From Bacilli bacterium (GTDB lineage: Bacteria > Bacillota_I > Bacilli_A > ML615J-28 > CAG-698), in the NCBI GenBank assembly GCA_050953065.1, contig JBMNLZ010000002.1:1-64000 (forward strand): DNA of 64,000 nt, in the 5' to 3' direction. The notes beneath the pieces were generated by a model, which saw nothing but the letters and a program-made list of their open reading frames with translations, ran no database searches and was not told the origin of the DNA. Positions 1 through 34,467 of the stretch are shown in pieces. How positions within the stretch are numbered: the first letter of the stretch is position 1; each line of letters opens with the position of its first letter. The position numbers were made by a program, and so were the translations under genes.

Positions 1-26
1 TTTGACAGTTTGATGTTGTTTTTGTT

Positions 27-1944: not shown

Positions 1945-3297
1945 ATGAACATTACCAGGGTTTTCAAGACTAAAAGCAGGATTAAATTGCCTGGCTTTGT
2001 ATCAGGTTTCGCTTTGATTTTTCTGCTTGTCTGGGCGGTTCTCCCCACCTCAGCCGCAGAGATAGAAGCAAGCAGGGAAATCTCTGCCGAAACAGTTTAC
2101 CCAGGCGAGAGTTTTGCGGTAACTGTACATATAAAGGCAGACCACGAGCTTGGAGCCCTGGTACTTGATGAGGATCTCCCTGGCGGGTGGCATGTAAACT
2201 ATTCAGAGAATAATGGGACTATATTTCCGGAAATCAACTTTTTTAAAGCAACCACTCTGGAATGGATATGGATTGAGAACCTCTCAGCCGGAGAAGAAAA
2301 GACAGTTATGTATAATGTGACTGTGCCTTTAAATTCCCAGCCTGGTAACTTTTCAATTACGGGCAGAGTCTCCGCTTACTCCGTTCCAGATGTCCCTGTA
2401 GAAGGGTTTTCAGAAGTAACAATTACTTATCCTCCTTCTGAGGTTGATATCTCTGCAAGTAACGGAGGCGAAGGAAGTGAAGGAGAAAGTAGCGGAAGCA
2501 GAGGAAGTGAAGGAGAAAATAGCGGAAGCGGAGGAAGTGAAGGAGAAAATAGCGGAAGCGGAGGAAGTAGAGGAGGAAGTGGAGGAGGAGGAGGTGCAGG
2601 CTCTCCGGAATCAACCAAGAATATTGAACTAAAGGAAGTTTCGAGTGAACAGGTTTTCAAAGGTACTCACACATGCTTTACTTTTAAAGGCGAGATAAAT
2701 GATATAGCTACTGTAGAATTCGACCCAAAAAAGAACTTCGGAAAAACAACTGCCATTGTAGAGATACTGAAAAACACATCTTCAATCGTTAAGGAACCTG
2801 CACCGGGAGCAGTTTACAGAAACATAAACATCTGGATCGGAAATAGCGGCTTCTCAAGTCCTGAGAATTTTGAAAATGCTAGAATAAATTTCAGAGTGAG
2901 TAAAGCCTGGATTGCCGATCACCGGGTTAGAGAAAATACTGTGAATCTTTACCGGTACGATAAGGGCTTATGGAATCCGCTGTCCACATCCCTCAATGGG
3001 GAAGATGAAAATTACTTCTATTTTACCGCAGAAACTCCAGGCTTTTCTCCTTTTGCAATCTCAGGGATTGAAGAGAAGATCCAATCGGTTGAAATTTCAA
3101 CAGCCAGAACAGGAGAAAACCGGACTCTGAGCAAAGAAGACATTTCTGACGATAAGACAAACTTTGACAAAGAAAAACAGGGAGTCACTGCTTCAGATAT
3201 AGAAAAAAAAGAAAAGAAAAGCTCTCCCGAGCCTGGAGCAACCTTTGCGGTGGCTGAATTACTGATTTTGTATGGTATATTGAAGAAAAAAATGTAA
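1945..3297 (+). CDS. PGF-pre-PGF domain cell-surface protein
   Basis: Signal peptide, Gly/Ser linker, GGGGAGSPES...VEILK...YRNINIWIG...FTAETPGFSPFAI, and a C-terminal PGF-CTERM-like hydrophobic/basic tail. Characteristic of Methanosarcina surface proteins. Confidence 0.85.
   Translation: MNITRVFKTKSRIKLPGFVSGFALIFLLVWAVLPTSAAEIEASREISAETVYPGESFAVTVHIKADHELGALVLDEDLPGGWHVNYSENNGTIFPEINFFKATTLEWIWIENLSAGEEKTVMYNVTVPLNSQPGNFSITGRVSAYSVPDVPVEGFSEVTITYPPSEVDISASNGGEGSEGESSGSRGSEGENSGSGGSEGENSGSGGSRGGSGGGGGAGSPESTKNIELKEVSSEQVFKGTHTCFTFKGEINDIATVEFDPKKNFGKTTAIVEILKNTSSIVKEPAPGAVYRNINIWIGNSGFSSPENFENARINFRVSKAWIADHRVRENTVNLYRYDKGLWNPLSTSLNGEDENYFYFTAETPGFSPFAISGIEEKIQSVEISTARTGENRTLSKEDISDDKTNFDKEKQGVTASDIEKKEKKSSPEPGATFAVAELLILYGILKKKM
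2473..2568 (+). repeat. 30-bp tandem repeat (3 copies plus partial) encoding a GSEGE(S/N)SGS(R/G) linker
   Basis: GGAAGTGAAGGAGAAA(G/A)TAGCGGAAGC(A/G)GA at 2473, 2503 and 2533. Confidence 0.85.
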
Positions 3298-3450
3298 TCC
3301 GAGAAAGGAAAGACAAACAGGGCAAAAACTAAGTTATCAAAGGTCTCTTTTGGGAAGACACTTTTTTGGATTCCATTTGTCTTCTGGCTCGTTCTCTTAC
3401 CCGGAATACACGAGATAAAGTTCAAATCCCTCTAATTGACGTTTTACTCT

Positions 3451-4392
3451 TCAAAGATATCCGCACTTCTCAAGCCAGGTGAGAGATCTTATCCATTCCC
3501 CTTTTGGCTCCCTGGAGGTGCCCACAACAAGCCGCTTGATGTCTCCTACTTCTTCGACAATGCCGCAGGCTTCTATAAGCTCTCCGGGAAGAGCCTGACC
3601 TGCATAGGTATGGGTATATGAGAGCACATGGTCGATCACATCGTGTTCGACTTTGTAGTAAGCAGGGCTGTCAAAAGCGAAATCGGCATTCTTGACCCTG
3701 GCTTCAATTTTCATATTTACGGTATCCTCTCCGCGCAGGAGAGGCTCTTTTATCTGGTCCCATTCCCTCACAAAGAGAAGGTCAAAATAAGTGCCCTCAA
3801 CCATTCCCCGGTTGCCTTTTCTGGACTCATGCAGCATGAACTCATCAAATGAGATGTCTGGGATTCTCTTCCTGTAGATTCTCTGCCACATCTCATCATC
3901 GATTTCTTCAATGGGTCCTTCCTGTCGTTTTGCAGCAGTTATTGCATCTCTTGCCCTGAACCACATGGGGCCGTATACAACAAAGTCAATGTCCGAGTTT
4001 TCATTCTGGAGACCTGCAAGCATTGAGCCCGTAACTCCCATGCTTGTCCTGGGAATGCCTGCCAGATCGAGTGCCTTTACAATTGCCCTTACGCGGTGGT
4101 CAGAGTTAACAAGTTTGGGAATCACGTCGGAAGGACGAAGCACCTGTTTTACCTCGGATTCAGGAACTACATGGACATCCTGCACCCACTCAGGCCTGTG
4201 CTCCCTCATGAATTCGAAAGCCGGGCCAAAGTCATATTTTTTGTATCGTAATCCGTTTAACTCCCTCTCCCCATTTTTATCGGGCACGTAACGGAGTGTA
4301 GCCCGGATTCCATCGGTGCGGAAATAGTCTGAAACTGCAAAAAGCCAGTTATCTTTCGTGACAAGGAAATCCCTCAGGCGTGTTTTGAGCAT
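3451..4392 (-). CDS. Archaeal nucleotidyltransferase (Pol beta-like) domain protein
   Basis: GVTGS...SDIDFVVYG nucleotidyltransferase motif, N-terminal RLRDF, and C-terminal TYAGQA and LVVGTSRE motifs of the conserved methanogen family. Confidence 0.8.
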   Translation of the reverse strand: MLKTRLRDFLVTKDNWLFAVSDYFRTDGIRATLRYVPDKNGERELNGLRYKKYDFGPAFEFMREHRPEWVQDVHVVPESEVKQVLRPSDVIPKLVNSDHRVRAIVKALDLAGIPRTSMGVTGSMLAGLQNENSDIDFVVYGPMWFRARDAITAAKRQEGPIEEIDDEMWQRIYRKRIPDISFDEFMLHESRKGNRGMVEGTYFDLLFVREWDQIKEPLLRGEDTVNMKIEARVKNADFAFDSPAYYKVEHDVIDHVLSYTHTYAGQALPGELIEACGIVEEVGDIKRLVVGTSREPKGEWIRSLTWLEKCGYL

Positions 4393-4767
4393 TTTATATC
4401 ATCCCTGTAGCTTACAAGAGAACCAAAAAGTACCCGGATTTTAAGGAATTTCAACAGCCGGGCTTTATAAGAATTTATAATAAACACAAGGAAATGTATT
4501 GTACAATTCATGTATATAACTATCAGGTTTTTAACAAAAACCTTTTAAAAAAGGCTTTAGCGAAAAGTACGGGATCAAATAGTGTGATAAAGCCAGGTAA
4601 ATAATAAGTCGGAGTAATATACCTGAACTTACAAATATTTAAGGAGAATATACTCAGGAATAAAATAAAACACAAATAAAGTATATTAAAATAGTGCATT
4701 GCAAATTAAAAGATTATTAAGATTACAAACAGTGAGTATTACGGACAGTAAATGTAACCAGAAATAA

Positions 4768-6072
4768 ATGTTACAGACCAGAAACGGAATAGACTGCAGG
4801 TGCAGAACATCCGAGGTAATGCTTTTGAGAGAGAACCCCAGTGCAGAAGAACTTGAAGCCTGGATTATACAGCTCAGGCGCGAATTTCACAGATACCCCG
4901 AACTCAGTTTTGAAGAATACGAAACCCAGAAGCGAATCCTGAAAATACTCGAGGAACTGGGAATAGAAGCCAGAAAAATTGCAGACACAGGCGTACTTGC
5001 AAGCATCAGAGGAACTTTACCCGGTCCCTGTATTGCACTTCGATCCGATATAGATGGGCTGCAGGTGCAGGAAGAATTAACTGAAAAGAATAGCGAATAC
5101 ATATCCAGAAATAAGGGAGTAATGCACGCCTGCGGGCATGACGGGCACATGGCAATGCTTTTCGGAGCTGCGAAGCTATTTCAGGAAAAACGGGATTTTC
5201 CAGGCGAAGTCCGCCTTATCTTCCAGCCTGCTGAAGAGATCCCTCCTGGAGGTGCTGAAAGGGTAATTGCAGAAGGAGGGCTTGAGGGCGTGGATGCGAT
5301 TATGGGGATGCACATCTTCACCAATCACGAATCAGGAAGCGTGGGCTCTCCGTCCAGGACCTTTCATGGCAAGCACCAATCGATTTGAGAGTGACCCTTA
5401 GAGGAAAAGGGGGCCACATCTCACTACCTCAAAAATGCATCGACCCGGTCCGAATGTCAGCGGATTTCATAAACAGCCTTTATCCTGCTCTGGAAAAGCA
5501 GCTTGAACCGGACAGGTATATCATTGGAGTGGGAAGAATTCAGAGGGGGAGCCCAGTTCAATCGAATTCCCGATGCTGTAGAGATCCTTGGAAGTTATCG
5601 GACCTTTGACCGGGAGACTACAGATATCATCGACAGGACAATAGAGGAATGCCTGGAAAAAGTGGTAAAAAGGTATGTAAAGCCTGGAGAAGAATTTTCA
5701 GGCCTCCCTGACTACAAGCTTGATATACTGCACGGTTATCCTGTCCTTGTCAATGACCCGGTGTTTGCAGACGCGGTAAACTCAAAGCTTCAGGAGAATT
5801 TCCCGGAGCTCACAATCTATCCTGAGATCGAAAAAACCTTTGCTGCCGAAGATTTTGCAAGTTACCTGCAGAAAGTTCCAGGAATTTTCCTTTCCCTGGG
5901 TACCCGCAATCCGGAAAAAAATATTGTGGAAATCAACCACTCATGCACATTCGATATTGATGAGACGATACTTATTACGGGCACGGAGATATTTTATACT
6001 ATTTCGCTGGATTTCCTCAATAACCCGGGAAAATATCTCAATCCCGTAACTACTTCAACCCCGAGCCGTTAA
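4768..6072 (+). pseudogene. M20D amidohydrolase broken by three +1 frameshifts (pseudogene or consensus error)
   Basis: Motifs RREFHRYPELS, ALRSDIDGL, MHACGHDGH, FQPAEE, GKGGH, AEDFA and HS..FDIDE are spread over frames 1, 2, 3 and 1, with shifts near 5348, 5390 and 5544. Confidence 0.85.
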
Positions 6073-6134
6073 GAAAAAGCCTGAAAACCGATAAGTGAGA
6101 AATAACGGGACTGCCCTGTTTGCGGAGGAAATAA

Positions 6135-6593
6135 ATGATAATCCAGAGATATGAAGACTCCAGAAAGGAAGAAGTCCGTGAGGTTGTTCTTGAAGTTTTG
6201 CAGGAGCATGGTTTTGAACCCGACAGGCTAAAAGATGCTGACCTTAACGACATAAACGGCTATTACTTCGGAAGCGGTGGCATGTTTTTCGTAGGAATCG
6301 TCGATGACAAAGTTATAGGTACGGCAGGCGTCCGAAAACTCGATGAAAATTGGTGCGAAATCCGCCGTATCTACCTTAAAAAAGCCTTCCGGAGCAAAGG
6401 CAATGGAAAAAAACTCTTCAGGGCTGCTCTCGATTTTGCTGAAAAAAACTGCTCGGCTGTAGTCCTTAAAACCGACTCAACCCTCACGAAAGCAATTGAT
6501 ATGTATCTCAAACACGGCTTCACTTTCCAGAAAGAAGAAACAGGATACCTGTATTTCGAAAAAAAGTTTGATCAAAAACCAAAAATCGTGTGA
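6135..6593 (+). CDS. GNAT family N-acetyltransferase
   Basis: EIRRIYL..FRSKGNGKKL acetyl-CoA motif and AIDMYLKHGF. RBS GGAGG upstream. Confidence 0.85.
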   Translation: MIIQRYEDSRKEEVREVVLEVLQEHGFEPDRLKDADLNDINGYYFGSGGMFFVGIVDDKVIGTAGVRKLDENWCEIRRIYLKKAFRSKGNGKKLFRAALDFAEKNCSAVVLKTDSTLTKAIDMYLKHGFTFQKEETGYLYFEKKFDQKPKIV

Positions 6594-6679
6594 TCAAATT
6601 TTTTATGGATTTTATTTGTGAATATTCAGGACGAGTAATTTTTTCACTGAGCGTTAATGCCCCTCCTGATGCATGTCAA

Positions 6680-7000
6680 TCACCACGGATATCTAGCCAT
6701 TTTTGCTTTTGCCTTTCTCACAGCTTCTGCCAGCCTTTCCATGCTCAGAAAACCATGCTGGCTGAGAACTGCACCGAGATATTCATCATTTTCATTGAAC
6801 ACAGGGTAATGCAATGGATCCATTGTATACCAGCTGACGTTTACTTTTTTCGGATAGCCGGTTCTGTTTATGTTCATTGTTATTGTACCATCAGCAGCGT
6901 TGAAGTAATATTCACGTTCAGGCTCACTGGATAGTATTTCTCCGAGTATTTCTTTTACAGCCTGGTTCCTTCTGCCATTCAATCCGGTTTCATAAATCAT
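6680..7000 (-). CDS. Hypothetical protein
   Basis: 106-aa ORF with plausible composition and no recognised motif. Confidence 0.45.
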   Translation of the reverse strand: MIYETGLNGRRNQAVKEILGEILSSEPEREYYFNAADGTITMNINRTGYPKKVNVSWYTMDPLHYPVFNENDEYLGAVLSQHGFLSMERLAEAVRKAKAKMARYPW

Positions 7001-7125
7001 CCGGTACCAACTCCTGTAGTTTTACGGGCTCAAACAATATCAGCATACTCGAGAGACATGGCAGTTCAATTTCTATTATGTGCATCCTGAGAATGCTTCA
7101 TTGGTTTTTAGTAATCTGAGGGTAA

Positions 7126-7392
7126 TTAACATACCCTTAAGGAACGTAGTATCCGTTCTTTAGACGAGAGGGTTTCATCTTTCAAAATTTCAAGTTTTTT
7201 ATATAATTCTCCCAAATGGATTTTTTTCTCTCTTATGATTTCCATTGTTTCGTCATAATGAGGTCCTTCTGTTATATTTTGGGTAGCTAGATCCTCTGTA
7301 TAGCCTTTAATGTCTTCTTCATCAAGCTCGATCAACGTTTGAATGTTTTTTATCTGACCTTCCAATGCTATTCTATCCATGTCTTCAGTCAT
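7126..7392 (-). CDS. Hypothetical coiled-coil protein
   Basis: 88-aa ORF with a GAGG RBS. The start lies 26 nt downstream of a CRISPR repeat. Confidence 0.6.
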   Translation of the reverse strand: MTEDMDRIALEGQIKNIQTLIELDEEDIKGYTEDLATQNITEGPHYDETMEIIREKKIHLGELYKKLEILKDETLSSKERILRSLRVC

Positions 7393-7418
7393 GTTTTTAT
7401 TCCTCTTCTACAGTCCAG

Positions 7419-7513
7419 GTTTCAATCCCTCTAAGGCCTGATTTTAACTGTTTTATTTTACATTCTTCCAAATCTGAGCAAGTGTTTCACTCCCTCTAAG
7501 GCTTGATTTTAAC
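7419..7513 (-). CRISPR. CRISPR mini-array: two degenerate 30-bp repeats and one 35-bp spacer
   Basis: GTTTCAATCCCTCTAAGGCCTGATTTTAAC (7419-7448) and GTTTCACTCCCTCTAAGGCTTGATTTTAAC (7484-7513). Same family as the copy at 11453. Orientation inferred from the minus-strand ATTGAAAC end. Confidence 0.8.
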
Positions 7514-7618
7514 CCGTCTCTTGCTTTTGTTTTTTCACTTTATCCGACTTTGCATTGTTAGCAATTCGAAATATTTCATTTAGTAATTCATCACTCATGC
7601 TGCCATCTTCTCTAAGAC

Positions 7619-8071
7619 TCATTTAATTTCACTCACTTCTATAACATATCTGTTACTCTTTTCTTCTTTTCTCACATATCCAATTACTGTTACAGCTTTA
7701 CCACTTGAAAAATCAATATCGTTATTCAAGGCTAGATAAACACCTTCTTTTGCGGAATATACTTTATAATTTTCAAAAATCGGAACATAAGTAACATTCG
7801 TGTATGTTGTAGTTGTTGTTCCTGAAGATGTTGTATATGGAATGAATATAGGCATCATAAAACTAAGCTTAGTACCTTCATCTATATGTTCTTGAATTAT
7901 GAGAGTTACACTTACTTTTTGGTTTATGTGATTTCCGACATCGTTAGCGTCTATATTGATTGGAGGTTTCGCATCGGCTATTAGTGCCGAAACTGCCATT
8001 AGTGCCAAAACTATTATACCAACAACTGCCAAGACTACCATTAATCCCATTATTAGCTCATATGAATCCAT
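7619..8071 (-). CDS. Membrane-anchored hypothetical protein, possibly OB-fold-like
   Basis: ATG 8071 with a GAGG RBS (ORF track extends to 8161). N-terminal TM helix, then a beta-rich domain (GKAVTVIGYV). Confidence 0.6.
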   Translation of the reverse strand: MDSYELIMGLMVVLAVVGIIVLALMAVSALIADAKPPINIDANDVGNHINQKVSVTLIIQEHIDEGTKLSFMMPIFIPYTTSSGTTTTTYTNVTYVPIFENYKVYSAKEGVYLALNNDIDFSSGKAVTVIGYVRKEEKSNRYVIEVSEIK

Positions 8072-8459
8072 TTTTACCTCATTTTTAGTGAAAAACGCTT
8101 TCCAACAGAAGTGTTGGAGGCGGTTAGATTTTCTTTTGATTGGTCTTTTCTTGTTGGTCATATTATCACTTCAAAAAAAAGATATGGGGTTAAACCTCAC
8201 GCACACTGACCTTATACCTCCCATTGGGATAATCCACAGTTTTATAGTAATAATCCTCGCCAATATTAATATTCTATACTGGCTATCCGTGACGAGTAGC
8301 CATCCGTATAAATCCGTCACCACAATACAGCGTTATTGCGATATCATCTGTCCTTACTGCAATGAGAAGTCTGGTAGATGGTTAAAGCTGAAAAAATATA
8401 TAGAAAACAATTCATAGGGGCTTAGAGTTGCCTGTGTGGATACCCAACGAGGTTAACAA

Positions 8460-8684
8460 ATGCCAGAAAGAAAAGCTTTAGGGCAAAACGAAGGAGAAAG
8501 AAACTTCTACACCGGGGGATTTGTCAGAACCGGATATAAATTCCGGGGAAAGGTAGAGAAATACATCAAAGGCTACCAGGGCAGGCGTGAAGATGCGTAT
8601 AAGCCTCTTGTAACTGATTATAAGCTTTCAAAACCCACAAAAGTAAGAAATTTATGGAAGAAGGAGGAAGTTAAGGATGTTTGA
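8460..8684 (+). CDS. Small basic hypothetical protein
   Basis: GAGG RBS. Overlaps the next small ORF. Confidence 0.5.
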   Translation: MPERKALGQNEGERNFYTGGFVRTGYKFRGKVEKYIKGYQGRREDAYKPLVTDYKLSKPTKVRNLWKKEEVKDV

Positions 8685-8793
8685 AGAACCTGTTATGGAT
8701 ATTTCAAAAATCGACGAAGAAAAGGCAAAAAAGCAAATGAATAAGGAAATAGCTGATTCAATTAAGTGCAGGTTTCGTGGGGCTCATAGATGA
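8677..8793 (+). CDS. 38-aa hypothetical protein (MFEEPVMDISK...)
   Basis: Read manually. GGAGG RBS at 8663-8667 and ATGA overlap with the next ORF. Confidence 0.4.
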   Translation: MFEEPVMDISKIDEEKAKKQMNKEIADSIKCRFRGAHR

Positions 8794-8927
8794 CGAAGAG
8801 TAAAATTAACTTGCTTAAAACCCCTATAAAGCCATTCTCTGCTATATTTTGGGCTGCTGTTATTGTGGTTATGGCTGTTTTCGGGCTGTTATTGAGAAGG
8901 AAGAAAGCAGACCTGAGAAAAAAGTAA
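8790..8927 (+). CDS. 45-aa single-TM peptide
   Basis: Read manually: MTKSKINLLKTPIKPFSAIFWAAVIVVMAVFGLLLRRKKADLRKK. Translationally coupled through ATGA. Confidence 0.45.
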   Translation: MTKSKINLLKTPIKPFSAIFWAAVIVVMAVFGLLLRRKKADLRKK

Positions 8928-9411
8928 TTTTTGCCTTTCCTTTTTATACAGGATTTTCCTTATTTTTATAAATCGCTTGCTTGCAACTTTGGCGCAAGTT
9001 TCTTTCTTAACTACTCCTCTGCTAATAGCTGTTTTTCCATAGCATATTGTTTTTGCAGGTTCTCGATATCTCTATATACTAATTCTAATAGTCTCGGATC
9101 TTTTTTCCCTGTATGCGCTTTTTCTGGCTCCCGAGCTGGCCTATCTTCTTTTGCCTGGACTTCTGGCTTGACCTCTTCTGTGTTGGCCTCTGATCTTTTG
9201 TAATCCTGGCTTTTGAAATATTATAAAAAATTTAAGTTAACTTTGATCGTCTGAGGGTCTTCCCCTGACGGTTACAAAAAACAAAAAAATAAAAGGGAGA
9301 GTTTTTCGTTTTTAAAAAAGCCTGTCGGAAGCTCCTTTCCAATGGGTAAGGTGAAAGTACCTTTCCTTTCTGATCCCATTATAATGAGCTTGTCTGTAGG
9401 CCTTAGAGATA

Positions 9412-9954
9412 TTAAGCCATTTCAGGATGCTTTTTCTTAAAGTCTTCTATCATTGTTTTATACTCTGCATAGTATTCGTTTCCTCTTATCAGAGATTCTG
9501 CCGCGTCTTCTATTGTGACTTCTGCTAATGCTGTGTTTCCTGCGTTAATATGTTCGAGAGATATGTCTATACGCTTTGCAAAAGCTCCATAAGAGCCCAT
9601 CATATCAGCATATTTCTGTACTGCTGGTTCCAGGTCATCATCATAATAATAAAATGCGCTCTCATAGCTTGATTTGTTTGATTCCGTGATAATGTATGCT
9701 GTAAGAGCTGTTATTTGCGATAGATCTTCTGGATTACTTAGAACAGTTGCAAGTTCGTTTGCAGCACTGGATACATTCTCTGCATCCGAGCTTGTTTTCT
9801 GCATCCATTCCTTGCTCTGGTCTGTGTGCTCCTCTGCAGGGCTGCCTGTGTTGTCCGTTGTCTTTTGGGTTGATGATTGACTAGAACATCCAGCAACAAA
9901 GATCACAGCAGCAATAAGAAGAAGAATTGCTAAAGTTTTCTGAGTTTTATTCAT
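9412..9954 (-). CDS. Putative lipoprotein
   Basis: MNKTQKTLAILLLIAAVIFVAGC lipobox, Ser/Thr linker and helical domain. Purine-rich RBS. Confidence 0.7.
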   Translation of the reverse strand: MNKTQKTLAILLLIAAVIFVAGCSSQSSTQKTTDNTGSPAEEHTDQSKEWMQKTSSDAENVSSAANELATVLSNPEDLSQITALTAYIITESNKSSYESAFYYYDDDLEPAVQKYADMMGSYGAFAKRIDISLEHINAGNTALAEVTIEDAAESLIRGNEYYAEYKTMIEDFKKKHPEMA

Positions 9955-10276
9955 TGTTCTTCCTTCCTTTAGCAAAAAGAAAGAAGATAAGTAATTAAAA
10001 ACCTTTTTATTTTTTTAGTAATGCACTTCCTCAAAGAATCCATCAAAGATCTGGCCTGAACTCTAGAGCCTGAAAATAAAGCTGTTTTTTAAAAAGAATG
10101 AAAACTATTACTGATAATGTTTTTATCAGTCCTTGATGGACTCAAGCAGAGAGCTCTGCTCAGGAATAGGGCATTAAAATGATATTCCAGACTTGCAGGT
10201 CAACCAGGAACCGCACTTCCTCAAGGAGTCCATCAAGGAACACAGAATATGGAGCTCGGCTTCGTGTGTGCAACTC

Positions 10277-10504
10277 TCAGCGTAGTTTAAAAAGACCGCG
10301 TTTAATTCCATCTTCTATAATAGAATTTATTTCAGAAAGACCAAATTCTTTTCCATGATCTGGATATTTCAAAATAAATGCTTGAGCAATTATTAAGGAA
10401 TTTGGAAGATCTCGATAATATGTTTTAGAGATGAAACTAGTAAGGTCATTAAAAACTAAATCGGATATTTTTTGTGGGACCATCATATACCAAAAGTCAA
10501 ACAC
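10277..10504 (-). CDS. Hypothetical protein
   Basis: 75-aa ORF. The start codon is uncertain. Confidence 0.45.
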   Translation of the reverse strand: MFDFWYMMVPQKISDLVFNDLTSFISKTYYRDLPNSLIIAQAFILKYPDHGKEFGLSEINSIIEDGIKRGLFKLR

Positions 10505-11241
10505 TATAACACCATGATGTTTTCCATGATGTGTATAAACCTGGTATACCTAAATTCCAAGCGAAAAAAAGCGTCTAACAATACTAGCATACATCTTATA
10601 TTATATAAATTGATGTATTTTCAATACTGCCAGACATCTTCAATCATTTTTCATGAATCTTTTTTCCTTCCCTTCTCAGATCTTCTGTTCTCTTATCCTT
10701 CTCTTCGAGTAACACTTGAAGCTCTTCAATCTGAGCTCTCAATTATGGGGATATAAGCTATAATTCTCTCTAAATATTGCCTGTGTGTTTCTCATAGTTT
10801 TTTTTCTGTTAACGTATACCTTATCGGCAGGTAAAATATCAAGGTCGAAATATCAAGGCTCTAGCTAACGATTTCTAAAAGTGTGTCTATAGTCTTTGGA
10901 ATGACTTGTGAACAAAACACATAGGTACGTTTAACCGATAGCGTTTATTTTCGTTGAGTGAACAAAACCACTAAATTTTTCAGGTTCAATTTGTCATTTT
11001 TGAAGGATGCCTTAAATTTCAGTTTTCCACAGGAAATGGAGGTTAAAACCAGACATGTATATAAGTACAGTATTACGAATTGTTTAAGATTTCATACTAT
11101 TTTTGTGAAAATGAAAGTTTATTTTTGACAGGCAATTGCAGGAAGAATTTAGAGGATTTTGTAAAGGTGTGTTTCCTATAGAGCCTGTGGAACTCTTGAA
11201 ATCTATATTTTCTTCATTCCTAAATAATTTATCGGTTTTAC

Positions 11242-11355
11242 TTATTCTTTCTGATGTTTGATAAGCTTGTATATCCGCGTCATTATAAGAATAAAAAGAA
11301 GAATTACTAATATGACCAGTATAAGTTCTGCTGTGCTTATAATCGAGACCCCCAT
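11242..11355 (-). CDS. 37-aa single-TM peptide
   Basis: Read manually: MGVSIISTAELILVILVILLFILIMTRIYKLIKHQKE. Confidence 0.4.
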   Translation of the reverse strand: MGVSIISTAELILVILVILLFILIMTRIYKLIKHQKE

Positions 11356-11452
11356 GATTTGTTATTATTATTGATATTATTTTTATTTTTAATATATTAT
11401 TTGCTATCCTTATTTCCTTACATATGTTCCTTCTTCAGCTAAATAGACCCAA

Positions 11453-11482
11453 GTTTCAATCCCTCTAAGGTCTGATTTTAAC
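11453..11482 (-). CRISPR. Solitary 30-bp CRISPR repeat
   Basis: GTTTCAATCCCTCTAAGGTCTGATTTTAAC, with 1 and 3 mismatches to the mini-array repeats. Confidence 0.8.
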
Positions 11483-11635
11483 TATTGCTCTGGAGCATGT
11501 AAGGAAGCATACCGCCGAAAAATGAAAAAAGAAGACATGGTATAAGTTTTGATAATATGATTCCTAACGGTTTTGTTTTTTTGAATATTCTGCGGCAAGT
11601 AATGACAATAAAACAAATATCAATAACCTACTTAG
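11483..11635 (-). promoter_or_regulatory. Putative leader/promoter of the 30-bp repeat locus
   Basis: AT-rich spacer region between the two repeat families. Minus-strand AAAACTTATA near 11541-11550 resembles a BRE/TATA element. Confidence 0.4.
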
Positions 11636-14600
11636 GTTTCAATCCTTGTTTTAATGGATCTTGCTCTCGAATCCTCTGGAAATCTCCGACCCACATATCA
11701 CGGTCTAGTTTCAATCCTTGTTTTAATGGATCTTGCTCTCGAATCTCATACACAAAATACTTCTTTCCTTTGTATTCTGTAGTTTCAATCCTTGTTTTAA
11801 TGGATCTTGCTCTCGAATTATACTTTGCGTGCATAGTATGTATTGTACACGGGGGTTTCAATCCTTGTTTTAATGGATCTTGCTCTCGAATAAAGTTTTC
11901 AAAGGCAAAAAAACAGGACTGCTACCAAAGTTTCAATCCTTGTTTTAATGGATCTTGCTCTCGAATAGGATCACGATAGCTAACAGCCGCAAGAGTGAAC
12001 GCTAGTTTCAATCCTTGTTTTAATGGATCTTGCTCTCGAATAGGCATTTGTGGCCTGTCTGCAATGTCAGCCTGGAGTTTCAATCCTTGTTTTAATGGAT
12101 CTTGCTCTCGAATTTTCTGATTCTATCAACCTGCAATCTGGCAATGACCTGTTTCAATCCTTGTTTTAATGGATCTTGCTCTCGAATTTTTGGCAGCCGG
12201 AGGTATGGTGGTATCATGCGTGATATGTTTCAATCCTTGTTTTAATGGATCTTGCTCTCGAATAGTAATTAAAAAGCATAGAGAGAGTCCGTACACAGAT
12301 GGTTTCAATCCTTGTTTTAATGGATCTTGCTCTCGAATTCTTTGAGAAGGGTTTCTCGATACATACTTTTCGGTTTCAATCCTTGTTTTAATGGATCTTG
12401 CTCTCGAATAGGTATATTTAATACTTTCTATTGTATGATACAATAGAGTTTCAATCCTTGTTTTAATGGATCTTGCTCTCGAATAATCAGTTACACAAGG
12501 CATGTAATAGGCGAATCATTGTTTCAATCCTTGTTTTAATGGATCTTGCTCTCGAATTCGTATCGGATATGTATACTTTGAAGGAAAGAATTTGTTTCAA
12601 TCCTTGTTTTAATGGATCTTGCTCTCGAATTTTTACCCCACCCATGAACATTTTCCCGTAATCGGTTTCAATCCTTGTTTTAATGGATCTTGCTCTCGAA
12701 TCAGAGTCTATAATTAGCTGTTGAGCTAATTCCTTATGTTTCAATCCTTGTTTTAATGGATCTTGCTCTCGAATTCGCTAGTTTCAATCAAGTTAGAATA
12801 CCCTTTCAAGTTTCAATCCTTGTTTTAATGGATCTTGCTCTCGAATGCGGGGCTGCCTGTTTCCGCGTATCAAGGATACGAGAGTTTCAATCCTTGTTTT
12901 AATGGATCTTGCTCTCGAATAAGGTGAAAACACGCCAGAAGAGACAGTCGAGGAGCTGTTTCAATCCTTGTTTTAATGGATCTTGCTCTCGAATCAACTT
13001 TCGCCCTGACATATCGGGCAGCTCTCTGCGTTTCAATCCTTGTTTTAATGGATCTTGCTCTCGAATCAAGATCTCCCTCTTCCAAGTCCATCTCAGTTTG
13101 AGAGGTTTCAATCCTTGTTTTAATGGATCTTGCTCTCGAATTCGTTGAAAACATTTAGAAAAAAAGAAAGATGACGTGTTTCAATCCTTGTTTTAATGGA
13201 TCTTGCTCTCGAATGTAGGATTCCCTCTCGCAGAACATTTTGACAATTCGGTTTCAATCCTTGTTTTAATGGATCTTGCTCTCGAATTATAATCCAGCAG
13301 TTTCAGTTAATTGTCAGTACCAGTTTCAATCCTTGTTTTAATGGATCTTGCTCTCGAATAAGGCGAGTCAGGAGATATTACCTATTCACTGACTCGTTTC
13401 AATCCTTGTTTTAATGGATCTTGCTCTCGAATAAGTTAATATAATAATGAGTGCAACTGTTCTTGATTATACGTTTCAATCCTTGTTTTAATGGATCTTG
13501 CTCTCGAATTTATATAGAGCCTTTTTTCAGGTCTTATATTAATTGTTTCAATCCTTGTTTTAATGGATCTTGCTCTCGAATTTCAACCCATAGCTTACTC
13601 AACATAAGCCCGTTTTTGTTTCAATCCTTGTTTTAATGGATCTTGCTCTCGAATAATTCCGGCACATTGAACTTATCCCAATACTCCTTTCTAGTTTCAA
13701 TCCTTGTTTTAATGGATCTTGCTCTCGAATCCTGCAGTGGAGAGAGAAAGACGGCAAACTAGTGAGTTTCAATCCTTGTTTTAATGGATCTTGCTCTCGA
13801 ATCCGTTAATTGACCAGTTAGTAAACCCTATTAGGTTTCAATCCTTGTTTTAATGGATCTTGCTCTCGAATGGGTTTTCAATAGCTATTCTAGGGATAGG
13901 AGCAGGTTTCAATCCTTGTTTTAATGGATCTTGCTCTCGAATTTCACCTCCTTTTCCAGTTTTTTAGGGTTTTCAGAGGTTTCAATCCTTGTTTTAATGG
14001 ATCTTGCTCTCGAATTGGTATGTAGTCATGTTCTGTCCTCAGTGTCTATAGAGTTTCAATCCTTGTTTTAATGGATCTTGCTCTCGAATACTTACAAATA
14101 TTCCGACATCTCAGCCTCTAGTTTTAAGTTTCAATCCTTGTTTTAATGGATCTTGCTCTCGAATGATAATCGAGTATGGTACAGGCTCAAATCAGAGTAA
14201 GTTTCAATCCTTGTTTTAATGGATCTTGCTCTCGAATCTGAATGTCTACCCTTATCAAGTTCATAGACTGACATTAGTTTCAATCCTTGTTTTAATGGAT
14301 CTTGCTCTCGAATACGGAAACATACAACCCGGATAAGAAAGGAAAATCCGGGTTTCAATCCTTGTTTTAATGGATCTTGCTCTCGAATAAAATGGAAGAA
14401 TTACAAAGACAGTATGATGAATAGTTTCAATCCTTGTTTTAATGGATCTTGCTCTCGAATCTATTGAATCGGCTGCCAGTCGAATAGGACAGGCAAGTTT
14501 CAATCCTTGTTTTAATGGATCTTGCTCTCGAATCGGCAGGTATGGATCTCGGCGAAGCGGCAGATATCGGTTTCAATCCTTGTTTTAATGGATCTTGCTC

Positions 14601-17600
14601 TCGAATAAGCTTAATGGTTGACGTTTGCAAAGAATGTGGAGTGTTTCAATCCTTGTTTTAATGGATCTTGCTCTCGAATTTCTATGGCTTCAGCGTAGAG
14701 TTTATTATCTTGTGGTTTCAATCCTTGTTTTAATGGATCTTGCTCTCGAATCAATATTCTCTGTTTTGAACTGAGTAATTGCACTTTGGTTTCAATCCTT
14801 GTTTTAATGGATCTTGCTCTCGAATATTTCAAGAGCGCAACAAGTTCAGCCGCGAGTTCAATGTTTCAATCCTTGTTTTAATGGATCTTGCTCTCGAATC
14901 AGAGTTGCTTTTCGATTCAGCAACCCCGTTACCGTAAGTTTCAATCCTTGTTTTAATGGATCTTGCTCTCGAATATTTCAAGAGCGCAACAAGTTCAGCC
15001 GCGAGTTCAATGTTTCAATCCTTGTTTTAATGGATCTTGCTCTCGAATCAGAGTTGCTTTTCGATTCAGCAACCCCGTTACCGTAAGTTTCAATCCTTGT
15101 TTTAATGGATCTTGCTCTCGAATAAGTGTATATACACGTATATACGATTTAAAAAAGATAGGTTTCAATCCTTGTTTTAATGGATCTTGCTCTCGAATTG
15201 TCGTCGTCAAAAATCCGGTTCTCGTTTTCTGGATTGGTTTCAATCCTTGTTTTAATGGATCTTGCTCTCGAATACCATACCACTCGACAAAATAGAACCC
15301 TGGCATGAAGGTTTCAATCCTTGTTTTAATGGATCTTGCTCTCGAATAGGGGTCTTCTCGCTGTGCCTCCGCGCTCCCTGAGAGTTTCAATCCTTGTTTT
15401 AATGGATCTTGCTCTCGAATTTAATACTCAGGCTATGAAGAAGGAAGAATTACGGGAGTTTCAATCCTTGTTTTAATGGATCTTGCTCTCGAATCAGATG
15501 CCCTGGTCCGAAAGTAGAGGATCCCCGGATGTTTCAATCCTTGTTTTAATGGATCTTGCTCTCGAATTTTTCCAGTCTACCTTTTTATAGACTGCTGCGA
15601 CGTTTCAATCCTTGTTTTAATGGATCTTGCTCTCGAATCATCTTCAATTCTTTGAAACCTTCAAATTAAAAGTTTCAATCCTTGTTTTAATGGATCTTGC
15701 TCTCGAATAATGTGTAAGGCTGAAATCCAGAAACTCCTTACATTGTTTCAATCCTTGTTTTAATGGATCTTGCTCTCGAATGAGAATACACTTACAGCTA
15801 TCTCCTGGAGTCTCACTAGTTTCAATCCTTGTTTTAATGGATCTTGCTCTCGAATTCTCGCCCGTCGTCTGTCATGCCTGGGCGGTAGGGGAGTTTCAAT
15901 CCTTGTTTTAATGGATCTTGCTCTCGAATGCGTCAAGTTCGGTTTTGACAAGACCGAATTCCGAAGTTTCAATCCTTGTTTTAATGGATCTTGCTCTCGA
16001 ATCCGAAAGCGTTTTTTGTAACTGCAACGCGGGAAAAAGTTTCAATCCTTGTTTTAATGGATCTTGCTCTCGAATCTCTAACAATTTCCTTGATAGCTCC
16101 GAGGTCCGAGATGGTTTCAATCCTTGTTTTAATGGATCTTGCTCTCGAATCAATCGGAGAGAAAGTCGCAGTCGGATTTGAGAGACTGTTTCAATCCTTG
16201 TTTTAATGGATCTTGCTCTCGAATACCCGATTTTGAGGTTGCCGCTCTTGTTCCTGAAAAGTTTCAATCCTTGTTTTAATGGATCTTGCTCTCGAATTTC
16301 TACGAGATCAGCCCTGTGCTGAATATCTTTAGGTTTCAATCCTTGTTTTAATGGATCTTGCTCTCGAATTATTGTTTTTCTATCTCATCTACTCCCAGGT
16401 CAGTTTCAATCCTTGTTTTAATGGATCTTGCTCTCGAATTGACAATACACAAATCATCTGTAAAACTCAATATCAGGTTTCAATCCTTGTTTTAATGGAT
16501 CTTGCTCTCGAATAATTCGGCTTCTCCGTGCCTTCACAGTCTCTGTTTCAATCCTTGTTTTAATGGATCTTGCTCTCGAATTGTAAGACCTGAAACTTTC
16601 AGGCTTAACGAACAGAGTTTCAATCCTTGTTTTAATGGATCTTGCTCTCGAATAGGGTGCAGTTGAGGTTGCAGAAGAAATCACAGAAAGTTTCAATCCT
16701 TGTTTTAATGGATCTTGCTCTCGAATCACCGATCGCCGACCTCGGGCATTTTGAAAGGATAGTTTCAATCCTTGTTTTAATGGATCTTGCTCTCGAATCT
16801 CTTCTTCATCGTCAACCTCTTTGAAAAAATCGGTTTCAATCCTTGTTTTAATGGATCTTGCTCTCGAATGCGAATTGAGGTCAAATCGATGGCAAAAACT
16901 AACGTGTTTCAATCCTTGTTTTAATGGATCTTGCTCTCGAATTCTTAACAAAGGGACAGATATAAGAGCATCACCGTGTTTCAATCCTTGTTTTAATGGA
17001 TCTTGCTCTCGAATCCAAACTAGTCACAGTACATCCACATCTAATAGAAAGGTTTCAATCCTTGTTTTAATGGATCTTGCTCTCGAATATATCCCGATTG
17101 GGGCTTAAGTTCCACACTTCTTTTGTTTCAATCCTTGTTTTAATGGATCTTGCTCTCGAATGATAAGGTTCTTTTATCGTCTTTTCCAACTCTTTTAGTT
17201 TCAATCCTTGTTTTAATGGATCTTGCTCTCGAATGCGTTTTACTAGATTCCTTTACGCAGCCAACATATTGTTTCAATCCTTGTTTTAATGGATCTTGCT
17301 CTCGAATGGGAAAGTGAGGACATCCCCCAACCCGACGGTTCTATGTTTCAATCCTTGTTTTAATGGATCTTGCTCTCGAATTCTACACAACGGAAGACCC
17401 AGGCACAGAGCCGCTTAGTTTCAATCCTTGTTTTAATGGATCTTGCTCTCGAATGCCAATCGTATATATAGTTTATGGCTACTAATAATGTTTCAATCCT
17501 TGTTTTAATGGATCTTGCTCTCGAATATCTTACTACAATATCTATATTGTATCTATTACTAGTTTCAATCCTTGTTTTAATGGATCTTGCTCTCGAATCA

Positions 17601-18752
17601 TGGAACGGATCAGCATATCAAACAACCGGAGTATAGTTTCAATCCTTGTTTTAATGGATCTTGCTCTCGAATCTGACAGTATATTTGTATTTATTTCTTT
17701 ATATTATGTTTCAATCCTTGTTTTAATGGATCTTGCTCTCGAATTTTTTAAGTTTTTTGAGGAAATTTGAAGAAATGTCAGTTTCAATCCTTGTTTTAAT
17801 GGATCTTGCTCTCGAATAAGTCCTCAAGAAGGACATTCTAATCAAAATCAAAGTTTCAATCCTTGTTTTAATGGATCTTGCTCTCGAATAGATTCAAACG
17901 GCCTGAAGAATACCGCCCAAAAGTACGTTTCAATCCTTGTTTTAATGGATCTTGCTCTCGAATTCTTTCTCAATAATTTTTATTACTTCCCCTCTCTAGT
18001 TTCAATCCTTGTTTTAATGGATCTTGCTCTCGAATATCCAAAATTCATTCTCAATGACATTGACGAGCTTCTGTTTCAATCCTTGTTTTAATGGATCTTG
18101 CTCTCGAATACTGTATTTGTTTTTCTGTGAGCTCTTCCCCTACTTGTTTCAATCCTTGTTTTAATGGATCTTGCTCTCGAATAAAAAAGAGAAGTTGCCA
18201 GTAAGTAACTAAGCTTGGTTTCAATCCTTGTTTTAATGGATCTTGCTCTCGAATCAAATACGCAAAGGACCCGACTTTTGCGGAAGTAAGTTTCAATCCT
18301 TGTTTTAATGGATCTTGCTCTCGAATTAGATTCCAGGGATTGAACGCTGTATTTTTTTGAGGTTTCAATCCTTGTTTTAATGGATCTTGCTCTCGAATAT
18401 ATTTGAAGGTTCAGAACCTAAATTGGTAGACGTGTTTCAATCCTTGTTTTAATGGATCTTGCTCTCGAATTATATAAAAGTTTGTATCTGATATATCAGA
18501 AACAACGTTTCAATCCTTGTTTTAATGGATCTTGCTCTCGAATATATCCACTATGGTTGTCTGAGCACCAACCCCTATGGTTTCAATCCTTGTTTTAATG
18601 GATCTTGCTCTCGAATACAAGAGTATAGGATAAGTTGCCCTGCTCGTATTGTGGTTTCAATCCTTGTTTTAATGGATCTTGCTCTCGAATGCCTCTCTGG
18701 TATGTCCCACTTGACAAAAAAGTGTGTTTCAATCCTTGTTTTAATGGATCTT
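11636..18752 (-). CRISPR. CRISPR array, 37-bp repeat, 97 full repeats plus 1 truncated, 97 spacers (about 31-40 bp)
   Basis: GTTTCAATCCTTGTTTTAATGGATCTTGCTCTCGAAT repeated about every 73 bp, a Methanosarcina-type repeat. The minus strand ends in ATTGAAAC (8-nt handle). The last repeat (18726-18752) is cut off after 27 nt. Counted manually. Confidence 0.98.
14789..15086. repeat. Tandem duplication of a two-spacer block (149-bp unit)
   Basis: Spacer 14826-14862 equals 14975-15011, and spacer 14900-14937 equals 15049-15086. Confidence 0.9.
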
Positions 18753-19240
18753 ATGATGATGCAGTACTTCCTGTTAACATCCAAAAGAGGGGACAAGTAA
18801 CCAATGATTTAATCATTGTTATGACTCCTAACGCACGTCCTAAGTCTGGAAGTATTGACGTACAAAATGCTTCATATGCAGAATTAAAGGCAGAAGTGAA
18901 AGCCTTATGTCATGGTAAACACTCTAAAGAAGCACGTGCTCATTTTGGTAATTATACCCAAATGAAAACTGCTGTTATGCGAGATTTACTACGAGAATGG
19001 CAAGCATCTCATGAATCACCAGTAAATACTTTTAAATTTGAAGAAGTACGTTCTAAATTAGAATCTGGAGATTTTGAAGTACTTACTATTGGAATAGATC
19101 GAAATATTTATAACGAAGCATTGAAATATATCTTTCATGGGATAACTTTACTACAAAACAAGGTTATTAATTTGAGTGCTACGAAAGCTCCCACGACAGA
19201 AGAATTGGAAGCTTTAGTAGAAAAATTTACTAGACAATAG
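18753..19240 (+). CDS. 5'-truncated putative ubiquitin-like domain fusion protein
   Basis: The real part of ORF 18635..19240 starts at DDAVLP. DDAVLP...NDLIIVMTPNARPKSG resembles the end of a beta-grasp fold, and it is the first gene of an E2/JAB/E1 operon. Confidence 0.5.
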
Positions 19241-27636: not shown

Positions 27637-27757
27637 AACTTTTACCCCACTTTTTAATTCTATTAATACCTGTTTACGCTTATATTATATCATATTTATT
27701 TTTTTTAAAAAAGATATTTATATAAAAGCAAAAATCCTTTTATATTAATTAAGGGAT

Positions 27758-34456: not shown

Positions 34457-34467
34457 TTTAATTCTTT

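What the first reader, a model, noticed from the sequence alone, without database searches (positions are those of the whole stretch)
7419..11482. Second CRISPR repeat family split by about 3.9 kb of gene-bearing, foreign-looking DNA
Seen: one 30-bp repeat next to a leader-like region (11453-11482), then 3939 bp of small orphan ORFs and gene remnants, then a degenerate repeat-spacer-repeat (7419-7513) in the same orientation. A short ORF (MSDELLNEIFRIANNAK..., ATG near 7598) runs into the 7513 repeat and stops inside it, as if cut at the junction. Inference: either an array whose interior was replaced by mobile DNA (spacer-protospacer recombination, or integration at a repeat, giving a giant spacer), or a decayed provirus carrying its own mini-array and solitary repeat. 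Mini-arrays are known in archaeal viruses.
Basis: partly seen in the sequence, partly recalled or inferred. Interest (0 to 1): 0.7.

Follow-up and report, generated by a model that had tools for sequence, protein, structure and literature searches.

The report
Fossil repeats at a CRISPR tail
Three leftover repeats of an older CRISPR type sit at the old end of a working Methanosarcina CRISPR array, split by 3.9 kb of ordinary accessory DNA rather than a virus: a tidy example of array decay, not a new system.

Summary
Three same-strand copies of a 30-nt repeat (R30) lie at 7419-7448, 7484-7513 and 11453-11482, with 3939 bp between the last two. R30 is a genuine Methanosarcinales CRISPR repeat that forms arrays of up to 113 copies elsewhere.

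Relatives G084 and G096 keep the same trailer flank (the 88-aa ORF plus 26 nt). There a 37-nt repeat (R37) array runs uninterrupted to the exact position of the repeat at 7419. So 7419-18753 is one CRISPR locus, read on the minus strand: the oldest units are R30 and the younger 97 are R37. It is interrupted by 3939 bp and by 153 bp.

- **Not a leader:** 11483-11635 does not match the conserved R30 leader.
- **Orphan repeats:** the Cas8b1/Cst1 gene that accompanies R30 arrays was not found in the two complete genomes holding this locus.
- **The insert:** a patchwork of orphan ORFs, a gene remnant, a lipoprotein gene and multi-copy Methanosarcina elements. No phage, plasmid, transposase or spacer match was found.
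- **Not unique:** kb-sized gene-bearing gaps between isolated repeats also occur at array tails in three other Methanosarcina species.
- **Assembly:** window 1-18753 is Methanosarcina DNA chimerically joined to a low-GC methanogen assembly. The locus itself stands in independent assemblies.

The parts
7126..7392 (-). 88-aa ORF. With the 26 nt upstream of it, this is the conserved trailer flank of the CRISPR locus.
   Evidence: Homologs in 13 of 59 Methanosarcina genomes. In G084 and G096 the ORF plus flank aligns at 87% up to the first bases of the terminal repeat.
7419..7448 (-). R30 copy 1 (C19 variant), at the position of the array's terminal repeat
   Evidence: Alignment A2 puts it in register with the terminal R37 repeat of G096 and G084.
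7449..7483 (-). 35-nt relic spacer
   Evidence: No protospacer with up to 3 mismatches in 59 Methanosarcina genomes other than itself. No exact match of its central 24-mer in IMG/VR.
7484..7513 (-). R30 copy 2, degenerate (A7C and C20T relative to copy 1)
7514..11452 (.). 3939-bp interruption ('giant spacer'): a patchwork of accessory DNA
   Evidence: Only G070 and G118 of 59 genomes hold it whole; parts match scattered places in 46 others. No phage or plasmid DNA match.
7509..7622 (-). 37-aa ORF ending inside R30 copy 2
   Evidence: No PHROG hit.
7619..8161 (-). 180-aa orphan ORF with a weak match (below Pfam's cut-off) to an N-terminal membrane-segment model
   Evidence: Found in G070 and G118 (both 100%), plus one weak 52-residue hit in G207 (E 9.3e-4), among 284 Methanosarcinales genomes. 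Pfam hits are only weak ones below cut-off, the best being OppC_N, an N-terminal TM domain, at residues 44-81. No NCBIfam or PHROG family. No IMG/VR relative.
9014..9220 (-). Gene remnant: the C-terminal part of a small protein that is an 81-aa ORF in G109
   Evidence: No ORF of 40 aa or more with a start codon is listed here.
9412..9975 (-). 187-aa lipoprotein-like gene with chromosomal homologs outside CRISPR loci
   Evidence: 71-91% DNA identity in G065, G064, G076, G086, G073 and G114. No repeats on the G065 contig; its context is. Lipoprotein signal-type hits only.
10277..10504 (-). 75-aa member of a small multi-copy Methanosarcina protein family
   Evidence: two copies in G102:C73, one in G072
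10760..11113 (.). About 330 nt of a multi-copy non-coding Methanosarcina element
   Evidence: up to 5 copies in G103. Alignment A1 has 79% mean column identity. No convincing structure.
11453..11482 (-). R30 copy 3, identical to the canonical family consensus (T19)
   Evidence: In Z-7115 and KYL-1 the same repeat sits one spacer beyond the last R37 repeat.
11483..11635 (.). 153-nt gap. It is not a leader. 11540-11625 is an 86-nt remnant.
   Evidence: No match to R30 leaders. 92% match to G061:C22, where it overlaps small ORFs and no CRISPR repeat is nearby.
11636..18753 (-). R37 array: 97 full repeats and a 98th cut at base 27 by the assembly join. 11636 is the trailer end.
   Evidence: Only the three spacers at the 11636 end are shared with G070. 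In G070 the cas genes and leader lie on the far side. Rfam CRISPR-DR7 matches on the minus strand.
6680..7000 (-). 106-aa accessory ORF, absent from the orthologous G084 locus
   Evidence: Homologs in 7 of 59 genomes. In G071 it lies 69 nt from an isolated R37 repeat.

Best explanation
Window 7419-18753 is one composite CRISPR locus of a Methanosarcina strain, transcribed on the minus strand from a leader that lies beyond the window's Methanosarcina part.

Its youngest 97 units carry the 37-nt repeat (R37) used by the neighbouring type I-B adaptation genes. Its oldest units are three fossil copies of a different 30-nt repeat (R30). Elsewhere in Methanosarcinales, R30 forms large arrays beside a Cst-type I-B system that these genomes appear to lack.

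The fossils persist because trailer ends are rarely deleted. They may also now lie in the upstream region of the 88-aa gene.

The fossil part is broken by 3939 bp and by 153 bp of non-CRISPR DNA. This DNA came in by one or more insertion or illegitimate-recombination events, from the Methanosarcina accessory gene pool rather than from a recognisable virus. It is tolerated because nothing downstream of it is needed for immunity.

- **Shown:** repeat identity, orientation, the conserved trailer flank, uninterrupted relatives, the patchwork make-up of the insert, and the lack of viral or transposon marks.
- **Inferred:** the order of events (R30 first, R37 takeover), the neutrality of the insert, and the way the DNA entered.
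For: 1. R30 is a real CRISPR repeat. 30 genome stretches hold exact copies, with arrays of up to 113 repeats. In G061 its array lies between cas6-cas4-cas1-cas2 and cas8b1/cst1-cst2-cas5t-cas3.

2. Orientation. In 12 loci the leftmost copy (GTTTCAAT orientation) carries more mismatches than the rightmost; the reverse holds in 2. A conserved CAAG... leader lies on the right and was also seen as loose ends in runs X2 and X16. In G070 the R37 array has cas4-cas1...cas8b and the leader on the right. The window and G070 share only the 3 spacers at the 11636 end, out of 96 and 36.

3. One locus. In G084 the whole left flank is syntenic: window 1021-6625 at 78-83% and 7027-7430 at 87%. A 50-repeat R37 array starts where R30 copy 1 starts. 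G096 shows the same junction.

4. R30 at the R37 tail elsewhere. It sits 36 nt beyond the last R37 in Z-7115 and 35 nt in KYL-1, and on the trailer side of a degenerate R37 in G081.

5. Orphan status. Each of G070 and G118 has only 3 R30 copies. TIGR01908 (Cst1) was found in 0 of G070, G118 and G062, but in G061. No Cst-type cas remnant appears in window 1-11700 by tblastn.

6. Patchwork insert.

7. Kb-sized gaps at trailer ends in other species. Z-7115 has 721, 1484 and 482 nt, the 1484-nt gap holding a 354-aa ORF that I read, without a family search, as a cation antiporter. G096 has 2734 and 519 nt. G071 has 3719, 1107 and 1360 nt, holding ORFs I read, again without family searches, as a GNAT and a RelE/ParE-like pair.
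Against: - No genome holds an intermediate: a contiguous R30 run at this flank, or the same locus without the 3.9 kb but with R30. So it is not shown that the three R30 copies were ever contiguous, nor whether one event or several built the insert.
- Copy 3 is the T19 variant, while copies 1 and 2 are C19-derived. The two parts could therefore come from different R30 arrays.
- The 4 nt on each side of copies 1 and 3 are alike (CCAG..TGTT against CCAA..TATT). Plain decay does not explain this.
- G118 has a Cst2/DevR-type Cas7 and a Cas5t-like gene beside its R37 array, so 'the cognate system is lost' rests on Cst1 and on array absence only.
- The loci compared for trailer gaps were found through R30 hits or flank homologs. 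They are not a random sample.
- G070 and G118 are 99.6-100% identical over window 5501-10000, against 84-97% in the flank. The block was therefore recently exchanged, which also fits mobility.
Confidence: 0.7

Rival explanations
1. A single circular mobile element (a decayed provirus or plasmid), possibly carrying its own R30-like solitary repeat, integrated by recombination with an R30 repeat of the array. It has since lost its replication and integration genes.
For: - The insert is flanked by two complete direct R30 copies.
- The 180-aa ORF is an orphan found essentially only in this lineage, in 284 Methanosarcinales genomes.
- The block is 99.6-100% identical between two species whose flanks are 84-97% identical.
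- Repeat-mediated integration of viruses carrying solitary repeat units has been proposed (passage seen in PMC8616872).
Against: - No integrase, transposase, capsid or replication gene turned up in Pfam, NCBIfam or PHROGs.
- No phage, plasmid or IMG/VR relatives.
- None of 897 spacers targets it.
- Its middle (9105-10132) matches ordinary chromosomal neighbourhoods of G065 and G064 that have no repeats.
- The near-identical tract begins at about 5300, inside the amidohydrolase gene, and fades at about 10500. It is not bounded by the repeats.
Confidence: 0.12
2. The adaptation machinery (Cas1-Cas2) itself integrated kb-long DNA as aberrant 'giant spacers', duplicating a repeat each time. These units have since drifted to the trailer end as new spacers were added.
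For: - Full-length repeats flank the long gaps in the window, and the gaps in G071 lie between single near-consensus repeats: three consecutive gaps of 3719, 1107 and 1360 nt.
- All long gaps seen lie at the old end.
Against: - No direct evidence.
- From recall, Cas1-Cas2 complexes measure spacer length tightly.
- The insert is a mosaic with a gene remnant and multi-copy elements, which suggests several events.
- The trailer-only position is equally expected if interruptions are merely tolerated there.
Confidence: 0.05
3. There are two unrelated relics. Copy 3 belongs to the tail of the R37 array, and the repeat-spacer-repeat at 7419-7513 is a separate mini-array. Rearrangement brought them near each other and they were never one R30 array.
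For: - Copy 3 is the T19 variant and copies 1-2 are the C19 type. Whole arrays of each variant exist in different genomes.
- A solitary R30 next to R37 tails occurs without a second R30 piece in KYL-1.
Against: - Same orientation.
- Copy 1 occupies the array's conserved terminal position.
- Z-7115 shows the same R30 - gap - R30 layout at its R37 tail.
Confidence: 0.1
4. Misassembly: the two repeat loci are joined only in this assembly.
For: The contig is chimeric further on, at 18753.
Against: The same structure occurs in G070, G118 and a 272-kb metagenome contig, and contigs from other runs bridge it.
Confidence: 0.01

Closest known systems
Orphan or degenerate CRISPR arrays left after loss of their cas genes (for example the E. 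coli I-F 'CRISPR4' remnants; Almendros et al. 2016, as cited in PMC8616872, passage seen)
   Same: A few repeats of a family whose Cas8b1/Cst1 marker gene was not found in the genome. They are degenerate and leaderless, and are kept at a fixed chromosomal place in related strains.
   Different: Here the remnant is not a free-standing array. It is the oldest part of a locus whose younger part uses another repeat family. Its single spacer shows no anti-cas or any other target.
Stable, polymorphic trailer ends of CRISPR arrays (review PMC8047081, passages seen)
   Same: The old end is conserved between strains while the leader-side spacers turn over. Terminal repeats are mutated.
   Different: The terminal units belong to a different repeat family and are separated by kb-sized non-CRISPR DNA.
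Virus-borne mini-arrays and solitary repeat units, with proposed repeat-mediated integration into host arrays (PMC8616872, passage seen; primary papers recalled, not read)
   Same: A repeat-spacer-repeat and a lone repeat flank foreign-looking DNA.
   Different: No viral gene, viral contig match or spacer target was found. The terminal repeat position is chromosomal and conserved.
Methanosarcina mazei Go1 type I-B locus (csa3-like MM_0565, cas8b ... cas6b, cas1, cas2, cas4, leader, array on the minus strand; PMC7465815, passages seen)
   Same: G070 has the same gene order and array polarity next to the R37 array.
   Different: The passages I read do not mention R30 relics or interrupted tails. 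I could not open the primary paper on the repeats (PMC3737336 is not held).

Membership tests
CRISPR array | Direct repeats of one family at regular spacer-sized intervals | tested here: met
   Met only for 7419-7513 (30-35-30 nt) and for the R37 part. Copy 3 is 3939 bp away.
CRISPR array | The repeat belongs to a family that forms long arrays beside cas genes | tested here: met
CRISPR array | A leader adjacent to the first repeat | tested here: not met
   11483-11635 has no similarity to R30 leaders and holds an unrelated 86-nt remnant.
CRISPR array | Cognate cas genes in the genome | tested here: not met
   Cst1 (TIGR01908) was not found in G070 or G118. G118 has a single cas1, beside the R37 array. 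Caveat: G118 has Cst2-type Cas7.
CRISPR array | Transcription and processing into crRNA | tested here: inconclusive
   Contigs of one RNA library (X15) span 7211-7597 and 11332-11665. These are contigs only, give no strand or ends, and DNA carry-over is possible.
Orphan or decayed array remnant | Few copies, degenerate, same place in related genomes, no array of that family elsewhere in the genome | tested here: met
Virus or plasmid mini-array / solitary repeat unit | Lies within a recognisable mobile element | tested here: not met
Virus or plasmid mini-array / solitary repeat unit | The spacer targets a related element | tested here: not met
IS or transposon insertion in an array | Transposase gene, terminal inverted repeats, target-site duplication | tested here: not met
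   No transposase family. No terminal inverted repeat at the insert ends among 60 pairs found, 25 shown.
Spacer-protospacer recombination product | A known spacer sequence continues into the inserted DNA at a junction | tested here: inconclusive
   None of 897 unique spacers from held arrays matches 6600-11635 beyond 17 nt, but no spacer database was at hand and no ancestral array is known.

The most novel reading that the evidence does not exclude
Trailer ends of Methanosarcina type I-B arrays act as recurrent capture sites. Kb-long gene-bearing DNA is taken up between full repeats as 'giant spacers', either by the adaptation integrase or by repeat-mediated recombination. CRISPR tails would then become small gene-cassette stores that are exchanged between species. 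The window's 3.9-kb block, nearly identical in two species, would be one such cassette.
Probability: 0.1. Interest if true: 0.7.

Novelty: new member of a known kind. Interest (0 to 1): 0.35.

Why it matters
In itself this is array decay, which is a known process. It still has three uses.

First, it is a clean, datable example of succession of repeat families within one CRISPR locus. The same trailer flank carries R30 units in one lineage and R37 units in others. The interference genes also differ between two close genomes (Csh-type in G070, Cst2/DevR-type in G118). This documents module replacement at a fixed chromosomal site.

Second, kb-sized gene-bearing gaps between isolated repeats recur at array tails in at least four Methanosarcina lineages. 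This hints that tails are tolerated or preferred landing sites, and that could be tested.

Third, array-calling software would split or miss such loci, so spacer-based strain typing would misread them.

Practically, the report also flags that the first 18.75 kb of this contig does not belong to the low-GC genome it is filed with.

Tried and rejected
- **Provirus or plasmid origin.**
  - blastn of the 3939 bp against 50,697 phage and 72,556 plasmid records gave no match.
  - IMG/VR scans with the 180-aa and 187-aa proteins gave no confirmed relative.
  - PHROGs gave only signal-peptide-type hits.
- **Anti-cas or self-targeting spacer.**
  - The 35-nt relic spacer has no match with up to 3 mismatches in 59 Methanosarcina genomes apart from itself.
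  - Its central 24-mer has no exact match in IMG/VR.
- **Spacers against the insert.** None of 897 unique spacers taken from all held arrays hits it.
- **Remnants of Cst-type cas genes in window 1-11700.** tblastn with nine G061 proteins gave nothing below E 0.2.
- **Further decayed repeats inside the insert.** None found.
- **Terminal inverted repeats or target duplications at the insert ends.** None convincing.
- **RNA family or structure.**
  - Rfam at E up to 1 gave only CRISPR-DR hits and one chance snoRNA hit.
  - The 330-nt element has no supported consensus fold.
  - The repeats fold weakly.
- **Un-inserted variant in metagenomes.** The only contig holding the relic spacer has the same structure.
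- **Reads.** Parts of the stretch without RNA-contig cover are not evidence of silence.
- **Literature.** Four full-text searches and passages of four papers turned up no description of R30 relics or kb-sized gene-bearing gaps at Methanosarcina array tails. This is not proof that none exists. Supplements are closed, and the primary paper on M. mazei repeats is not held.
- **Not used.** The search for homologous proteins, the search of protein representatives, structure prediction and complex prediction, because the ORFs' functions would not change the reading.

Full report
**What is there**

The window holds three same-strand copies of a 30-nt repeat (R30). They lie at 7419-7448, 7484-7513 (2 mismatches) and 11453-11482 (1 mismatch). 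None of 100 shuffles gave a match. The whole 1.55-Mb assembly has no further copy with up to 6 substitutions.

The first two copies are 35 nt apart. The second and third are 3939 bp apart. From 11636 a second family, a 37-nt repeat (R37), runs for 97 full copies.

**Where the DNA comes from**

The assembly is 29-30% GC. Window 1-19000 is 33-45% GC. The R37 array ends at 18753, 27 bases into a repeat, and 28% GC DNA follows. The end of contig C3 repeats window 24108 onwards at 100% identity. Relatives of the assembly match only the low-GC part. Another contig starts with 20 kb at 53-65% GC.

Window 1-11891 is 99.3% identical to a complete 3.28-Mb Methanosarcina genome, G070. The first 18.75 kb is therefore Methanosarcina DNA joined chimerically to a low-GC methanogen assembly.

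The finding itself is untouched by this:
- The three repeats and the 3939 bp occur at 100% identity in G070 and 99% in the 3.13-Mb genome G118.
- They occur at 99.1% in a 272-kb metagenome contig.
- 14 run rows from 7 studies hold half or more of the sampled words of this stretch; one of these rows, and its study, may be the window's own source sample.
- Contigs of two unrelated runs bridge 6527-8697 and 7406-8247.

**What R30 is**

Exact copies occur in 30 stretches of species-representative genomes. These are Methanosarcina, Methanolobus, Methanoperedens and other Methanosarcinales MAGs, plus one MAG labelled Thermoplasmata. Arrays reach 113 repeats.

Among 59 Methanosarcina species genomes, 19 have R30 with up to 3 mismatches: 8 carry 22-85 copies and 11 carry 1-6 copies.

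In G061 the R30 array lies between cas6-cas4-cas1-cas2 plus a leader on one side and cas8b1/cst1-cst2-cas5t-cas3 on the other.

In the GTTTCAAT orientation, the leftmost copy carries more mismatches than the rightmost in 12 loci and the reverse holds in 2. A conserved leader beginning CAAG(G/C).ATTTT... follows the rightmost copy. The same leader appeared as loose ends in two runs. R30 is therefore read on the window's minus strand, and its RNA would end in ATTGAAAC. I recall that sequence as the usual 8-nt handle; I did not test it.

**Polarity of the R37 array**

In G070 the array is followed on the right by cas4, cas1, a 226-aa ORF, cas3, cas5h, csh2 and csh1/cas8b, all on the minus strand, and by a csa3-like gene. 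The window and G070 share only the three spacers at the 11636 end, out of 96 and 36. G118 shares none. So 11636 is the old (trailer) end.

The 153 nt between R30 copy 3 and the first R37 repeat is not a leader. It has no similarity to R30 leaders. It also holds an 86-nt stretch that is 92% identical to a place in G061 that overlaps small ORFs and has no CRISPR repeat nearby.

**The key comparison**

The 88-aa ORF (7126-7392, minus strand) has homologs in 13 of 59 Methanosarcina genomes.

- **G084.** The whole left flank is syntenic: window 1021-6625 at 78-83% and 7027-7430 at 87%. A 50-repeat R37 array begins where R30 copy 1 begins.
- **G096.** Window 7018-7427 aligns at 87%, and the next bases start the terminal R37 repeat.

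Alignment A2 shows the shared flank ...ACAGTCC(A)G followed by the terminal repeat in all three. That repeat is R30 in the window and R37, somewhat mutated, in the other two.

Hence 7419 is the terminal repeat position of the same locus, and 7419-18753 is one CRISPR locus.

**R30 at R37 tails elsewhere**

- In Methanosarcina sp. Z-7115, a canonical R30 lies 36 nt beyond the last (mutated) R37. A mutated R30 lies 1484 bp further on.
- In KYL-1, a canonical R30 lies 35 nt from a decayed R37-like unit.
- In G081, a mutated R30 lies 1063 nt on the trailer side of a mutated R37.

The simplest reading is that R30 units are the older layer and R37 took over at the leader side. This order is inferred, not shown.

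Locus remodelling is visible directly. G070 and G118 share cas1, cas4 and R37 but have different interference genes. G070 has Csh1/Csh2/Cas5h. G118 has a 585-aa unknown protein, Cst2/DevR-type Cas7 and a Cas5t-like gene.

**Orphan status**

G070 and G118 each hold only the three R30 copies. Cst1 (TIGR01908) was not found in G070, G118 or Z-7115, but was found in G061 and in the M. acetivorans control. G118 has a single cas1. tblastn with nine G061 Cas proteins found nothing in window 1-11700.

**The 3939 bp**

It holds:
- the 37-aa ORF;
- a 180-aa orphan found in G070 and G118, plus one weak partial hit, among 284 Methanosarcinales genomes;
- small ORFs at 8460-8684 and 8790-8927;
- a start-less remnant at 9014-9220 of a protein that is an 81-aa ORF in G109;
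- a lipoprotein-like gene at 9412-9975 with 71-91% homologs in six other species, outside CRISPR contexts where I looked;
- a 75-aa member of a multi-copy small-protein family;
- a 330-nt multi-copy non-coding element.

No family search gave a transposase, integrase or viral hallmark. No phage, plasmid or IMG/VR relatives were found. No spacer from 897 held spacers targets it. No terminal inverted repeats were seen.

DNA that is absent from other species also begins left of the repeats, at about 6600.

Against G118, window 5501-10000 is 99.6-100% identical, while 1-5000 is 84-97%. This recent recombination tract starts inside the amidohydrolase gene and fades near 10500, so it is not bounded by the repeats.

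**Not a one-off**

With the trailer on the left, the repeat maps read as follows:
- window, G070 and G118: R30x2 - 3939 - R30 - 153 - R37xN;
- Z-7115: R37 - 721 - R30 - 1484 - R30 - 36 - R37x2 - 482 - R37x58;
- G096: R37 - 2734 - R37x2 - 519 - R37x20;
- G071: R37 - 3719 - R37 - 1107 - R37 - 1360 - R37x12;
- G084: R37x50, with no gap.

The gaps hold ordinary accessory genes. In Z-7115 there is a 354-aa ORF that I read, from its hydrophobic sequence and without a family search, as a cation antiporter. In G071 there are ORFs that I read, again without family searches, as a GNAT and a RelE/ParE-like pair. These loci were reached through R30 hits or flank homologs, so the frequency is not an unbiased estimate.

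**Reading**

This is a composite CRISPR locus whose oldest, orphan R30 units survive at the tail. It is interrupted by accessory DNA that entered in one or more steps and is tolerated because nothing downstream is needed.

Contigs of one RNA library span 7211-7597 and 11332-11665. This fits read-through across the fossils into the 88-aa gene, but it is weak evidence.

Three things remain unexplained:
- the like flanks of copies 1 and 3;
- the T19/C19 difference between the two parts;
- how the DNA entered.

Noticed in passing
window 18727-18760, and the contig ends of the assembly: The contig is chimeric. Methanosarcina DNA (about 40% GC) ends 27 bases into a 37-nt repeat at 18753 and 28% GC DNA follows. 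The end of contig C3 (565545-570852) duplicates window 24108 onwards at 100%. Contig C1 starts with 20 kb at 53-65% GC.
   Followed up: partly
window 4768-6072: An M20-type amidohydrolase gene is split into at least two ORFs (4768-5388 and 5503-6072). This is exactly where the window departs from G070 (93-97% identity against 100% elsewhere) and approaches G118.
   Followed up: partly
window about 5300-10500, against G118: A tract 99.6-100% identical between two species-level genomes whose neighbouring DNA is 84-97% identical. This points to recent recombination next to the CRISPR locus.
   Followed up: partly
L062 (G070) 3641-12944 and L065 (G118) 1389-9747: The same R37 array and the same cas1 and cas4, but different interference modules. 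G070 has Csh1/Csh2/Cas5h. G118 has a 585-aa unknown protein, Cst2/DevR Cas7 and a Cas5t-like gene.
   Followed up: partly
window 10760-11113: A conserved non-coding element of about 330 nt, present in many Methanosarcina genomes (up to 5 copies in G103), with invariant blocks. It has no Rfam hit and no supported fold.
   Followed up: partly
window 14789-15086: A perfect tandem duplication of 149 nt (two repeat-spacer units) inside the R37 array (family D5).
   Followed up: no
L096 (G071:C1:2792000-2806000) 6813-13110: Three isolated near-perfect R37 repeats are separated by 3719, 1107 and 1360 nt before the array proper. The gaps hold ORFs that I read, without family searches, as a GNAT, a SnoaL-like ORF, a RelE/ParE-like pair and a membrane protein.
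   Followed up: partly
window 7415-7452 and 11449-11486: The 4 nt on either side of R30 copies 1 and 3 are alike (CCAG..TGTT and CCAA..TATT). This is unexplained.
   Followed up: no
window 24900-37600 and 50200-51100: In the low-GC part there are long minus-strand repeat families with periods of about 243-276 nt and about 3.3 kb, suggesting large repetitive surface-protein genes (D4-D15).
   Followed up: no
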